Source: a virus
Lineage: Duplodnaviria; Heunggongvirae; Uroviricota; Caudoviricetes
IMG/VR virus record: IMGVR_UViG_2721755728_000011
Strand: one strand, 5' to 3'
DNA: 64,000 nucleotides
In this document: positions 3,001 to 6,000 of the stretch, piece after piece
Layout of the letters: every line of letters starts with the position of its first letter
How positions within the stretch are numbered: the stretch's first letter is position 1
Made by a program: the position numbers

Positions 3001-6000
3001 ATTGGAAGTTCACCAGCCAGCCACAGCACGTTCTTGCATACAACGTGCCTGCGGTTTTTGAGACCGGTCCGATCATCAAACGAAACATAAAATTAGCTCA
3101 CACTATGAGGAAAAGTATCTTTTTTTACTATGTAAATTCAAAGAATTAGCCTCATTTACCCGATAGTTTTCTCAACACTACTGGTTGTGAGCCCTTGCAA
3201 TGTTCATTAATATACGTCTCACAAATAATTCATAGATATTGCAAAATGGATATTACTGAGTTTCCTTCTGGAGTAATTGAACACCTTGGCTGGTATGTAT
3301 ACCGATTGATTGATCCGAGGGACGGAAGCACCTTCTATGTAGGGAAAGGCAAAGGTAACCGCGTATTTGCCCATATGCGCGGTGAAGTGGCAGCGACTGA
3401 TGATGACGAGTTACTGAGCAACAAGCTAAAGCAAATTAGAGAAATAAGGTTAGCAGGACTTGAGGTTATCCATGTCATCCATCGACACGGAATGACTGAT
3501 GAAAAGACGGCGTACGAAGTTGAAGCAGCACTTATTGATGCCTACCCTGGGTTAACGAATATCATGAATGGTGCTGGCAGCAATGAATTCGGCGCCGCGC
3601 ATGTCAAAGAGTTGATAGCAACATATCAACCCGAAACCATAACATTTCATCATAAAGCATTAATGATTTCCGTTAACAGAAGTGCAAAGGATTCAGAGCT
3701 TTATGATGCGGTTCGATTTAGCTGGCGCATTAATGTCTCTCGCGCCAGCCAAGCAGAAGTCATTCTTGCTACTGTAAGGGGGATCGTTCGAGGGGTTTTC
3801 ATTGCTGATAAATGGCTCAAATCAACACGTGAAAATTTCCCTACGATGAAATACTGGGACGAGGATCCGGACTTTGAGGCAACACAAAGTTCTCGCTATG
3901 GTTTTGAAGGTCGAGAAGCCCCACCTGAAATAGCAAATCTTTATCTTGGAAAAAAAATACCAGATGAATTAAGAAAAAAAGGAGCTATGTCCCCGGTCCG
4001 TTACTCACCTAATTTTTGAGTCTTTAAGTGATAAGCATAAACCGCAGCACGTCATGCATACGTCGTGTCTGCGGTTTTTCTTTTTTGCTTACACGGTGTC
4101 TGGTTCTTCTGGCCACTCAATATCAGGTGCAGTTGATGTATCAACACGGTTCAGCAACACCCGATACTTCTTCCAGGCTTCCAGCAACGAGGTTTCTTCC
4201 TCCGTTGCAATTTCCAGATCTGCAGCATCCTGAAGCGGCGCAATATGCTCACTGGCTACCTGCATCAGGTTGTTTTTTGTTTCTTCCGCCTCCCGGATCC
4301 GGAACAGTTTTTCTGCTTCCGTATCCTTCACCCAGGCTGTGCCGTTCCACTTCTGAAACTCCCCTTCCGGCGATAACCAGGTAACATTTTCCGGTAACGG
4401 ACCGAGTTCAGAAATAAATAACGCGTTGCCGGAAGCCACGTCATAAACCGTTTTACCCCGATGATCTTCAACGAGATGCCACGATGACTCATCACTGTTG
4501 AAAACAGCCACGAAGCCAGCCGGAATATCTGGCGGTGCAATATCGGTACTGTTTGCTGGCAGACCTGTATGAGGCGGAATATATGCATCACCTTCACCAA
4601 TAAATTCATTAGTTCCGGCCAGCAGATTATAAATTTTTATGGTCCGTGGTTGTTCACTCATTCTGAATGCCATTATGCAAGCCTCACAATATAGTTAAAT
4701 GCGATGTTTTTGACGGTGTTTTCCGCGTTACCAGCAGCGTTAACGGTGATGGTGTGTCCATGTGAACCAATCGCAACGGAGTGCGTATGAGCACCAATAC
4801 CGACAGTATGCGCGTGTGCACCTGCAGATGCTGCTGTGCCGGACAGTGAATGGCTATGATTACCATCTGTACTGGTATTCGCTAACCACCCCGTAGACAT
4901 ACCTACTGAGCCTTGTACACCCCAGGTATTTTGACCTGAGCTTGTATAACCATATTGATAAGTATCTTTAAAAACACTGGGGTTAAATCGACGGCCATCT
5001 CTATGGCTGTGATTACCAGCTGCATTCGTGCTGCCACTTAAACTATGGGTATGCGCACCAGTGTTATTCGTGGATTTAGTGCCGTAATCAAACGACGATG
5101 TGGTTTTCGTCCCCAAATCCGTACTGGATGCGCTGGCGCTGTGGGTGTGCGATTTAATGCCGTCCTGTTCCTGAGACAATACGGCCCGACCACTGGCGGG
5201 CTTGCCCTTAATCATCCAGCCACGCATATCAGGGATCACGCCTGACGGATAAGCCGCTGCAAGTTTCGGGTAAGCAGATTTGTCAAAAGTCTGCCCCTGC
5301 ATCAGGGCATAACCAGACGGAACGGTATCTGATGGCCACGGGATTGGTGCGCCAACTGGGTAGCTTTCTGGTGGAAGATTTTTCGAGGTATAAACTTCTG
5401 CCCAGCCTTCCTCAAAACCATAGCCATCTCTTGAGGAACGGTAGAACAGACCTCCATTTCTGTAATGCGCCTTCATCTGCAGGGTCCGGCAACTTCCGAC
5501 TCCGGTATAGAAGTTAACCAGAATATAGCTGTCGCCAGAGCGGGTGACATTGTAAGCGCCTGATTCGGCATTCCATGGAACGCCACCATCCGCATCGGCA
5601 TATGTATCCGTTGCCCTTCTGGCAAAAGCAGCCACATGCGCGGCGGTTAAAGTAATATCTCTGGAACCATCAAACTCAACACCAGAAACCCGTCTTGGCG
5701 TTTGCAGCTTTGTTGCTGTTAATGCATTACCGTTCAGACTTGCGGACAGTTTGGTTCCAATAACCAGTTCGCCGGTTGCGTTATCAATAGCAAACGGTCT
5801 TAATGTATTCCAGCCACCATAAACATCACCTTGATTGGTAAGCAGCAGGTAAGTTTTAGCGCCATCATTACGCCATAATGCACCATACTCCCCACCTATC
5901 ATTCGAATCTGATTACCACCACGCGCTACAATTTCGTCTGTGGCAAAAAGTTTTTTGCACGACAAGTTATCGTTAACGATTAACGAATGAGACTCATAAA

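What the first reader, a model, noticed from the sequence alone, without database searches (positions are those of the whole stretch)
3024..4087. GIY-YIG nuclease-domain gene bracketed by ~35 bp imperfect direct-repeat hairpins
The 274-aa protein has a clear GIY-YIG N-terminal motif and an unknown C-terminal domain. It is flanked by two similar hairpin-plus-T-run elements (3024..3059 and 4045..4079) that form direct repeats. That looks like a self-contained, transcriptionally insulated cassette: a homing-endonuclease-like selfish element, an anti-phage nuclease, or a moron bounded by a reused terminator.
Basis: partly seen in the sequence, partly recalled or inferred. Interest (0 to 1): 0.6.

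Follow-up and report, generated by a model that had tools for sequence, protein, structure and literature searches.

The report
Known anti-phage nuclease between reused terminators
The gene is a copy of PD-T4-3/CMoRE, a restriction enzyme already solved by crystallography that cuts the modified DNA of T4-like phages, and the two "repeats" beside it are copies of a terminator hairpin common in E. coli prophages, so the finding is real but ordinary.

Summary
A GIY-YIG gene is present, best read as 3246..4019 (257 aa from the ATG, not 274 aa from the TTG). Two homologous hairpin-plus-T-run elements flank it at 3021-3059 and 4042-4079, identical in 31 of 36 aligned columns.

The protein is not unknown. 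It matches the PADLOC PD-T4-3 model end to end (E 2.4e-140) and is 253/257 identical to PDB 9U75 (E. coli O157:H7 CMoRE). [quoted passage not shown] The "unknown" C-terminal half is its modification-sensing domain.

The window is a lambdoid prophage integrated at ssrA. The hairpins belong to a terminator family present in 4246 of 5426 complete E. coli genomes (median 2 places). Its usual position is a single copy between convergent dinI and the tail-fibre assembly gene tfa.

- The upstream copy is the orphaned terminator of a dinI pseudogene (2866-2951).
- It is half-deleted in the commonest arrangement among the PD-T4-3 loci sampled.
- It is absent from PD-T4-3 loci in 80 other species.

The best reading is a defence moron in a variable prophage-end slot. 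It is not a homing-endonuclease element. Interest is low.

The parts
40..402 (+). ssrA (tmRNA) gene, the chromosomal attachment site. The prophage end begins just after it (context).
   Evidence: Rfam RF00023 at 295.8 bits. Same layout in strain C3.
573..1334 (-). Bro-N / antirepressor-like gene (context; part of the 3.7-kb accessory module shared with e14-like prophages).
   Evidence: Pfam Bro-N 2.4e-7. PHROG anti-repressor Ant 4e-17. Module 375-4077 is 99-100% identical in e14-like loci.
1641..2018 (+). XRE-type HTH regulator, CapH-like (context).
   Evidence: Pfam HTH_19 3.7e-9. PADLOC capH 6e-11.
2022..2555 (+). ImmA/IrrE (M78) metallopeptidase, CapP-like (context).
   Evidence: Pfam Peptidase_M78 2.8e-11. 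PADLOC capP 5e-15.
2866..2951 (+). dinI pseudogene remnant. It keeps roughly the last 30 codons, has an in-frame stop and lacks the N-terminal ~50 codons.
   Evidence: The translation ...[26 protein letters not shown] compares with mEp460 DinI ...[32 protein letters not shown]. The blastn match to the dinI 3' ends of phages covers window 2868-3059 (query 39-230).
3021..3059 (+). Upstream hairpin plus T-run (36-nt variant). It is the orphaned dinI terminator.
   Evidence: Fold -14.2 kcal/mol. The same variant follows intact dinI in L013/L019. Family profile hit E 2e-13.
3060..3177 (+). Leader shared with another cargo cassette (a ClpP-like SDH protease in L013/L019). Probably ancestral flank of the slot.
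   Evidence: blastn 2868-3177 at 69% to L013/L019. Alignment.
3185..3213 (+). Candidate sigma-70 promoter of the nuclease gene: TTGTGA, 17-nt spacer, TAATAT (8 of 12 matches). It lies inside the cargo-specific segment 3178-4039.
   Evidence: Read from the sequence. It falls below the scanner's 9-of-12 threshold. Inference only.
3246..4019 (+). [quoted passage not shown] It has an N-terminal GIYxY-YIG nuclease (Y17, Y19, Y31), an acidic loop D52-E55 and a C-terminal 5hmC-sensing domain.
   Evidence: PADLOC PD-T4-3 E 2.4e-140, residues 1-256 on model positions 1-255 of 256. PDB 9U75 253/257 identical, 9U7U E 1e-150. Function from PMC12923530.
4042..4079 (+). Downstream hairpin plus T-run (35-nt variant). 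Terminator of the nuclease gene, 9 nt from the tfa stop codon. Probably bidirectional.
   Evidence: Fold -20.2 kcal/mol on + and -20.8 on -, z -4.7 and -4.4. A-tract/T-tract extended inverted repeat 4025-4047/4069-4091. It differs by 1 nt from the single hairpin of dinI-hairpin-tfa phages.
4089..4673 (-). Tail fibre assembly gene tfa, the last late gene, convergent with the nuclease gene (context).
   Evidence: Pfam Caudo_TAP 7.9e-45. Annotation.

Best explanation
The window carries a lambdoid prophage integrated at ssrA. Between the prophage end and the last late gene (tfa) lies a variable accessory region.

The gene at 3246..4019 is PD-T4-3/CMoRE, a single-protein type IV restriction system. 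Its C-terminal domain binds 5-hydroxymethyl- or glucosyl-hydroxymethyl-cytosine DNA. Its N-terminal GIYxY-YIG nuclease then cuts that DNA. An acidic loop (DDDE, residues 52-55) keeps the active site shut against ordinary host DNA. The prophage thereby protects its host, and itself, from T-even phages. This function is shown for proteins 98% and roughly 85-90% identical, and is inferred here by identity.

The two flanking repeats are copies of one intrinsic-terminator family. Its usual position is a single, probably bidirectional, hairpin between convergent dinI and tfa. Here the upstream copy still follows a dinI pseudogene. The downstream copy ends the nuclease transcript and abuts tfa.

The duplication most likely arose when two prophages carrying different alleles of this terminator recombined. 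That placed the nuclease gene (cargo-specific segment 3178-4039, with its own weak promoter) in the dinI-tfa slot. This step is inferred. The arrangement is a moron in a recombination-prone accessory slot, not a mobile element that owns its repeats.
For: Identity of the protein.
- PADLOC PD-T4-3 matches full length at E 2.4e-140.
- 253/257 residues are identical to PDB 9U75 and E is 1e-150 to 9U7U.
- Y17, Y19, Y31 and D52-D53-D54-E55 are present.
- The four differences from 9U75 are T51A, E55D, Q169K and N197H.

Function.
- PMC12923530 reports 5hmC/5ghmC-specific cleavage, crystal structures, active-site and acidic-loop mutants, and about 10^5-fold protection against T2, T4 and T6.
- PD-T4-3 restricts Tevenvirinae in a native host.
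- A 48%-identical homologue degrades modified but not unmodified T4 DNA.

The terminator family.
- Phage mEp460 has dinI, one hairpin, then the tfa remnant. Its left flank matches the flank of window hairpin 1. Its hairpin and right flank match window hairpin 2.
- Among 72 IMG/VR loci, about 28 show dinI, a single hairpin and tfa.
- The hairpin and its flank occur in 4246 of 5426 E. coli genomes, at a median of 2 places.
- The stem is kept in 94.5% of cells over 20 distinct variants, against 23-45% in slid registers.

The repeats belong to the slot, not to the gene.
- 80 PD-T4-3 loci in other species show no hairpin, and their nucleotide homology is confined to the CDS.
- The same hairpin borders other cargo: ynfT-ydfK-pinQ in K-12 Qin, a ClpP-like SDH protease bracketed by two copies of dinI tail plus hairpin, a SocA/Panacea pair, and AbiTii one gene further upstream, beyond an intact dinI (L072).

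Shared module.
- The module 375-4077 also sits next to pinE in e14-like prophages, and homology ends at the hairpin's T-run.
Against: - No experiment here shows termination at either hairpin.
- The simple terminator scan missed both hairpins, because of the bulge and the loop longer than 8 nt.
- The upstream hairpin is only marginally more stable than shuffled sequence (z -1.65).
- Covariation in the stem is not significant: one pair shows a double change, and 61 of 500 shuffles reach the observed score.
- The promoter is only a weak consensus match.
- The order of events that produced two copies cannot be reconstructed from the data. It could be an insertion beside a terminator or recombination between two terminator alleles.
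- The two copies differ at 5 of 36 columns. That fits two alleles but does not prove it.
Confidence: 0.88

Rival explanations
1. The hairpin, together with the roughly 100-nt dinI tail, acts as a recombination anchor. It is a conserved boundary sequence at which phage Rad52-type recombinases swap accessory or defence cassettes between lambdoid and e14-like prophages. The repeats would then be the scars and substrates of cassette exchange, not only terminators. This extends the best explanation rather than contradicting it.
For: - Homology breakpoints cluster at the hairpin: 3036, 3049, 3059/3062 and 4040, with 4077 in the pinE context.
- L013/L019 carry a different cargo between two copies of dinI tail plus hairpin.
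- A third copy lies directly left of the 375-4077 module in L039, L045 and L063 (e14-like) and beside the window-375-574 stretch in L049 (tfa context).
- Many unrelated cargos border the element.
- Lambda Red and RecT recombine short, roughly 12%-diverged sequences with Rac and Qin in just this tail-fibre region (PMC3945230).
Against: - Breakpoints at a conserved element are expected anyway, because homology is only detectable there.
- No recombination assay was done.
- Some junctions lie inside the hairpin or up to 120 nt to its right (3099, 3177), so the anchor is not a precise site.
Confidence: 0.4
2. The upstream HTH and ImmA/IrrE pair (CapH/CapP-like) forms one regulated unit with the nuclease gene and switches it on after DNA damage or infection.
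For: - The genes are on the same strand and within 700 bp.
- PADLOC gives capH 6e-11 and capP 5e-15.
- The trio travels together in the 375-4077 module in two prophage types.
Against: - Two terminator-like hairpins (2839-2857 and 3021-3059) and a dinI pseudogene lie between them.
- About 16 of the 26 PD-T4-3 IMG/VR loci lack the pair, and at least 10 of these carry an EcoRII R-M system there instead.
- The gene protects when cloned alone with its own promoter.
- Relatives in 80 other species share only the CDS.
Confidence: 0.08
3. The gene is a free-standing GIY-YIG homing endonuclease that spreads by cutting cognate empty sites, and the repeats mark its homing site.
For: - A GIY-YIG domain is present.
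- There is a weak PHROG match to a homing-endonuclease family, E 0.0021.
- Empty sites (dinI, hairpin, tfa) exist.
Against: - The protein is 98% identical to an enzyme shown to be modification-dependent and autoinhibited on ordinary DNA.
- No NUMOD, IENR or HTH DNA-binding module is found.
- The gene sits in at least three different left contexts and two right contexts.
- The repeats are absent in other species.
Confidence: 0.02
4. The hairpins are the functional ends of a small transposable or integron-like cassette, comparable to IS200/IS605-type hairpin ends or attC sites.
For: There are two structured direct repeats about 1 kb apart bracketing one gene.
Against: - No transposase or integrase lies in or beside the segment.
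- The copies differ at 5 of 36 columns while the cargo is 97-100% conserved.
- The exact 35-nt variant of hairpin 2 was seen only after PD-T4-3 (17 of 17). A variant 1 nt different occurs as a single copy between dinI and tfa, and the hairpin 1 variant also borders another cargo in L013/L019.
- The upstream copy is often half-deleted with no loss of the gene.
- The hairpin is not found with the gene outside E. coli prophages.
- No Rfam or other family match was found.
Confidence: 0.03

Closest known systems
CMoRE / PD-T4-3 (E. coli O157:H7, PDB 9U75/9U8D; E. coli APEC O1, PDB 9U7U/9U7Z). First found in ECOR68 by functional selection.
   Same: - Same length and a full-length alignment, with 253/257 residues identical to 9U75.
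- Full-length match to the PADLOC PD-T4-3 model.
- GIYxY-YIG tyrosines at positions 17, 19 and 31.
- Four consecutive acidic residues at 52-55.
- A single-gene system.
   Different: There are four substitutions: T51A, E55D (the loop stays acidic), Q169K and N197H. The genomic context is not mentioned in the structural paper, where the word 'prophage' does not occur. That context is a lambdoid prophage at ssrA, between a dinI remnant and tfa.
McrA (EcoKMcrA) of the e14 prophage of E. coli K-12
   Same: Both are prophage-borne type IV restriction enzymes aimed at modified cytosine. In e14-like prophages the PD-T4-3 module occupies the same slot as mcrA in K-12, between pinE and the prophage end.
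   Different: McrA is an HNH nuclease on the same strand as pinE. PD-T4-3 is a GIY-YIG nuclease convergent with pinE. No sequence similarity or hairpin was found at the K-12 pinE-mcrA junction.
Lambdoid-phage 'morons': an accessory gene with its own promoter and terminator set between conserved modules (concept from Juhala/Hendrix; own knowledge)
   Same: It is a single accessory gene of host-benefit function. It is transcribed against the late operon, has a candidate promoter and a strong terminator, and the slot is occupied differently in related phages.
   Different: The terminator is not unique to the moron. It is a copy of the slot's resident dinI/tfa terminator, so the gene appears bracketed by repeats.
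GIY-YIG homing endonucleases (I-TevI, I-BmoI)
   Same: They share the GIY-YIG catalytic fold.
   Different: - There is no intron or target-gene association.
- There is no modular sequence-specific DNA-binding domain.
- The enzyme is modification-dependent and autoinhibited.

Membership tests
CMoRE / PD-T4-3 type IV restriction endonuclease | Full-length similarity to the family profile and to the solved structures | tested here: met
   PADLOC PDLC04031 at E 2.4e-140, residues 1-256 on model positions 1-255 of 256. PDB 9U75 at E 3.7e-172, 253/257 identical. PDB 9U7U at E 1.1e-150.
CMoRE / PD-T4-3 type IV restriction endonuclease | GIYxY-YIG motif with three tyrosines (Y17, Y19, Y31) | tested here: met
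   The sequence ...GW-Y17-V-Y19[12 protein letters not shown]31-VGKG... is read. The residue numbering matches PMC12923530.
CMoRE / PD-T4-3 type IV restriction endonuclease | Autoinhibitory loop of four consecutive acidic residues | tested here: met
   D52 D53 D54 E55 here, against DDDD in 9U75. The loop's role is described.
CMoRE / PD-T4-3 type IV restriction endonuclease | C-terminal modification-sensing domain (a fold with no other homologues) | tested here: met
   Residues about 110-257 align without gaps to the 9U75 and 9U7U chains. Pfam finds no domain there, as the paper says is expected.
CMoRE / PD-T4-3 type IV restriction endonuclease | 5hmC/5ghmC-dependent DNA cleavage and protection against T-even phages | not testable with these tools
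   Shown for the O157:H7, APEC O1 and Klebsiella proteins and in the native host NILS69. Inferred here from 98% identity.
GIY-YIG homing endonuclease | Association with an intron, intein or fixed target gene, plus a sequence-specific DNA-binding module | tested here: not met
   The gene is free-standing between a dinI remnant and tfa or pinE, with several left contexts. No DNA-binding domain was found in Pfam. The PHROG homing-endonuclease match is only E 0.0021.
Intrinsic (Rho-independent) terminator | G+C-rich stem-loop directly followed by a T-run, downstream of a stop codon | tested here: met
   - Hairpin 2 lies 22 nt after the nuclease stop: -20.2 kcal/mol, z -4.7, followed by TTTTTCTTTTTT.
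- Hairpin 1 lies 69 nt after the dinI' stop: -14.2 kcal/mol, z -1.65, followed by TTTTT.
- The stem is kept in 94.5% of cells across 20 variants.
- The simple scanner did not call either hairpin.
Intrinsic (Rho-independent) terminator | Measured transcript 3' ends or termination activity | not testable with these tools
   No expression data are available here.
Transposon / IS / integron-type cassette with functional repeat ends | Identical target duplications or recombinase-specific ends, with a cognate recombinase | tested here: not met
   - The copies are 86% identical while the cargo is 97-100% conserved.
- No terminal inverted repeats exist beyond the hairpin itself.
- No transposase is nearby.
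- The upstream copy is half-deleted in 13 of the 26 PD-T4-3 IMG/VR loci.
- The hairpin is absent in other species.

The most novel reading that the evidence does not exclude
The dinI-tail-plus-terminator element may be a conserved boundary sequence. It would define a cassette-exchange slot at the tail-fibre end of lambdoid and e14-like E. coli prophages. At this slot, phage recombinases would swap defence and other accessory genes by relaxed homologous recombination. Candidate cargos seen at the slot are PD-T4-3, EcoRII R-M, AbiTii, a Panacea toxin-antitoxin pair, a ClpP-like protease and YdfK-PinQ. The bracketing repeats seen here would be a snapshot of that process.
Probability: 0.35. Interest if true: 0.35.

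Novelty: already known. Interest (0 to 1): 0.14.

Why it matters
As it stands, little. The gene can simply be annotated as PD-T4-3/CMoRE, a type IV restriction enzyme against hydroxymethylcytosine phages. It occurs in about 15% of complete E. coli genomes (796 of 5426). The repeats can be annotated as terminators.

The context adds a little. The enzyme is prophage cargo. In e14-like prophages it takes the place of McrA. In many lambdoid prophages it sits beside an EcoRII R-M system, so that unmodified and hypermodified cytosine DNA would both be covered. The conserved terminator could also serve as a handle for cataloguing what else is carried in this prophage-end slot.

Tried and rejected
- Pattern search. 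A fixed-length IUPAC pattern with up to 3 mismatches found only the upstream copy, because the copies differ by a 1-nt indel. Alignment, the repeat finder and a profile search recovered both.
- Terminator scan. The consensus scan did not call either hairpin, because of the bulge and the loop longer than 8 nt. It called a different one at 2839-2857.
- Rfam. There is no family for the hairpins or the leader.
- NCBIfam. There is no model for the protein.
- Deposited phage genomes. None of 50,697 records holds the cassette at megablast sensitivity. Only the dinI tail plus hairpin matches, in 56 records. IMG/VR prophage contigs do hold the cassette.
- Covariation. The structure is conserved, but compensatory change is too scarce to be significant.
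- K-12 e14. No hairpin or homology was found at the pinE-mcrA junction.
- Leader ORF. A possible 14-codon ORF at 3104-3148 was rejected because the ATG is not conserved in the homologous L019 leader.
- Structure prediction and fold search were not run, because crystal structures of a 98%-identical protein exist.
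Full report
**1. What is in the sequence**

The region 2700-4400 was read directly and its ORFs were listed. An ORF runs from a TTG at 3195 to a stop ending at 4019, giving 274 aa. The first ATG is at 3246, giving 257 aa. RefSeq annotation of a 100%-identical locus in E. coli strain C3 uses that ATG. Both deposited crystal constructs also begin there. The gene is therefore best taken as 3246..4019.

Pfam places a LEM-3-like GIY-YIG domain (PF22945) on residues 28-110 at E 2.1e-14, and finds nothing on the C-terminal half.

The two flanking elements align with 31 identical columns of 36, four mismatches and one indel. 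The repeat finder independently reports 3032-3059 and 4052-4079 at 86% identity, 1020 nt apart. A profile built from variants of the element hits only these two places in the 64-kb window, at E 2e-13 and 1e-12.

Both elements fold as a bulged hairpin followed by a T-run.
- The downstream copy is strong: -20.2 kcal/mol, z -4.7.
- The upstream copy is weak: -14.2 kcal/mol, z -1.65. It has an A.C mismatch in the outer stem.

**2. Where this is**

The window starts in ssrA. The tmRNA gene lies at 40-402 (Rfam, 295.8 bits). The window then continues into a lambdoid prophage whose late genes are on the minus strand: gpJ, lom, stf (4673-8077) and tfa (4089-4673).

Between ssrA and tfa lies an accessory region, in this order:
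- a Bro-N antirepressor-like gene (573-1334, minus strand);
- an XRE-type HTH gene (1641-2018);
- an ImmA/IrrE metallopeptidase gene (2022-2555);
- two small ORFs and a terminator-like hairpin (2839-2857);
- the finding itself.

**3. What the protein is**

The PADLOC library gives an end-to-end match to PD-T4-3 at E 2.4e-140, covering residues 1-256 on model positions 1-255 of 256. PHROGs gives phrog_5356 at E 2e-143, of unknown function.

Against the PDB, the protein is 253/257 identical to chain 9U75_A and matches 9U7U_A at E 1.1e-150. [quoted passage not shown] That paper makes the following points.
- The C-terminal domain, a fold without known homologues, senses 5hmC and glucosyl-5hmC.
- The N-terminal domain is a GIY-YIG nuclease with an extra tyrosine, giving the motif GIYxY-YIG (Y17, Y19, Y31).
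- A loop of four consecutive acidic residues autoinhibits the enzyme. Mutating the loop to alanines makes the enzyme cut ordinary DNA and makes it toxic.
- The gene cloned with its native promoter lowers plating of T2, T4 and T6 by about five orders of magnitude.

The window protein has Y17, Y19, Y31 and D52-D53-D54-E55. Its four differences from 9U75 are T51A, E55D, Q169K and N197H.

Two independent studies support the function. PD-T4-3 restricts Tevenvirinae in its native host NILS69. A 48%-identical Capnocytophaga homologue degrades modified but not unmodified T4 DNA.

The gene is common. 796 of 5426 complete E. coli genomes hold at least 80% of the segment 2830-4100. Relatives at 55-86% identity occur in many phyla.

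**4. What the repeats are**

*The upstream copy.* The 190 nt ending at the upstream hairpin (2868-3059) match the 3' end and downstream spacer of dinI genes in 56 deposited lambdoid phages. Translation shows a dinI remnant at 2866-2951, reading ...[26 protein letters not shown]. It has an in-frame stop and lacks the first ~50 codons. The upstream hairpin is therefore the orphaned terminator of a dinI pseudogene.

*The single-copy ancestor.* In phage mEp460, intact dinI is followed by one hairpin and then by the tfa remnant on the other strand. The left flank of that hairpin matches the flank of window hairpin 1. The hairpin itself and its right flank match window hairpin 2, with one nucleotide different.

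*Survey of IMG/VR.* A scan for the hairpin gave 72 loci with 74 exact copies. Classifying their flanks gave the following groups.
- About 28 loci show dinI, a single hairpin and tfa.
- 16 loci show PD-T4-3, a hairpin and tfa, with no exact upstream copy.
- 8 loci show HTH, ImmA, dinI', hairpin, PD-T4-3 and pinE (e14-like prophages).
- Only 2 loci have both exact copies, as in the window.

*State of the upstream copy.* In 13 of the 16 loci with no exact upstream copy, homology to the window begins at 3036. Only the 3' half of the upstream hairpin survives there, next to a deleted dinI tail. In one locus only CGGTTTT remains. The upstream copy is therefore dispensable.

*Frequency and conservation.* In E. 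coli genomes the hairpin and its flank occur in 4246 of 5426 genomes, with a median of 2 and a maximum of 9 places. At most 187 genomes have the intact junction of hairpin 1 with the nuclease leader. Across 20 distinct variants the stem is kept in 94.5% of cells, against 23-45% for slid registers. Compensatory changes are too few to be significant.

*Other species.* Around PD-T4-3 relatives in 80 other species there is no hairpin, and nucleotide homology stops at the CDS ends. The repeats belong to the prophage slot, not to the gene.

**5. The slot and its other cargo**

The same hairpin borders unrelated genes.
- In K-12 Qin it precedes ynfT, ydfK and pinQ, which are followed by tfaQ on the other strand. 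L007, L059, L062 and L072 are of this type.
- In L013 and L019 a ClpP-like SDH protease gene lies between two copies of dinI tail plus hairpin. The first ~120 nt of its leader are 69% identical to window 3060-3177. The nuclease-specific segment is therefore 3178-4039.
- Other loci carry a SocA/Panacea pair directly upstream of the hairpin. L072 carries an AbiTii gene one gene further upstream, beyond an intact dinI.
- In L004, and judging by the matching homology pattern in at least nine further loci, the place of Bro-N/HTH/ImmA is taken by a C5-cytosine methyltransferase and an EcoRII endonuclease.

The whole 375-4077 module is 99-100% identical in e14-like prophages. There it abuts pinE, homology ends in the hairpin's T-run, and the T-run overlaps the pinE stop codon. 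In K-12 e14 the equivalent slot holds mcrA, another type IV enzyme, with no sequence similarity at the junction.

**6. How it most likely works**

*Shown by identity to characterised proteins.* The enzyme recognises hydroxymethylated or glucosylated cytosine DNA of incoming T-even phages and degrades it. Host and prophage DNA are spared because they are unmodified and because the acidic loop guards the active site.

*Inferred.*
- Transcription starts at a weak sigma-70-like promoter: TTGTGA at 3185-3190, a 17-nt spacer, and TAATAT at 3208-3213. It lies inside the cargo-specific segment.
- Transcription ends at hairpin 2. With its A-tract/T-tract extension (4025-4047 / 4069-4091) and near-equal stability on both strands, hairpin 2 probably also ends the late operon coming from tfa.
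- Hairpin 1 may damp read-through from the upstream genes. It is weak and often truncated, so insulation is not a conserved feature.
- The two copies are different alleles of the family. The 35-nt variant of hairpin 2 differs by 1 nt from the dinI-tfa allele. The 36-nt variant of hairpin 1 is found with other cargos. This suggests recombination between two prophages at this element rather than a target duplication.
- Phage Rad52-type recombinases are known to recombine short, roughly 12%-diverged sequences in just this tail-fibre region (PMC3945230).

**7. Comparison and verdict**

The gene is a member of the CMoRE/PD-T4-3 family on every sequence criterion tested. Only the biochemistry is untested here.
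- It is not a homing endonuclease.
- The repeats meet the sequence definition of intrinsic terminators.
- The repeats do not meet the definition of transposon or cassette ends.

Everything essential is already known. The only mildly new aspect is the description of the dinI/tfa terminator as a recurrent boundary of a variable accessory and defence slot in lambdoid and e14-like prophages. That remains an inference. Interest is low (0.14).

Noticed in passing
window 4132-4330 (-): The Rfam family RF02111 'IS009' (a candidate sRNA) matches at 225.9 bits against a gathering score of 117. The match lies entirely inside the tfa coding sequence, on the same strand.
   Followed up: no
window 1641-2555 (+), with divergent 573-1334 (-): An XRE-HTH and ImmA/IrrE pair resembles the CapH/CapP damage-responsive regulators of defence systems (PADLOC 6e-11 and 5e-15). 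It is divergent from a Bro-N antirepressor-like gene. The trio travels with the nuclease gene as a 3.7-kb module (375-4077) shared between a lambdoid prophage at ssrA and e14-like prophages next to pinE.
   Followed up: partly
window 2866-2951 (+): A dinI pseudogene remnant keeps the C-terminal ~30 codons, has an in-frame stop and lacks the N-terminal half. Intact dinI occupies this position in many lambdoid phages.
   Followed up: yes
window 3060-3177; L019 (oriented segment 1587-1790): The first ~120 nt of the nuclease gene's leader are about 69% identical to the leader of an unrelated ClpP-like SDH protease gene. That gene is itself bracketed by two copies of dinI tail plus hairpin. The role of this shared leader is unknown.
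   Followed up: partly
L004 9856-12580 (same homology pattern in at least nine further IMG/VR loci): In the commonest lambdoid arrangement, PD-T4-3 sits next to a C5-cytosine methyltransferase and an EcoRII restriction endonuclease. Together they form a small defence island at the prophage end that would cover both unmodified and hydroxymethylated cytosine DNA.
   Followed up: partly
L076 (K-12 e14, NC_000913.3 1209685-1211179) versus L002: In K-12 e14 the slot between pinE and the prophage end holds mcrA, an HNH type IV enzyme. In e14-like prophages of other strains the same slot holds the module containing PD-T4-3, a GIY-YIG type IV enzyme, in the opposite orientation.
   Followed up: partly
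L077 (K-12-type Qin prophage) 2501-4891: The same hairpin family marks the Qin prophage end. It is followed by ynfT, ydfK and pinQ, and then by convergent tfaQ.
   Followed up: partly
window 487-589: A strong terminator-like hairpin lies just after ssrA and before the Bro-N stop codon. It draws many weak sub-threshold Rfam leader and sRNA matches, which are probably generic terminator hits.
   Followed up: no
window 2830-4100 versus the 'phages' collection: None of the 50,697 deposited phage genomes holds the PD-T4-3 cassette at megablast sensitivity. It is nevertheless present in about 15% of complete E. coli genomes and in IMG/VR prophage contigs.
   Followed up: no
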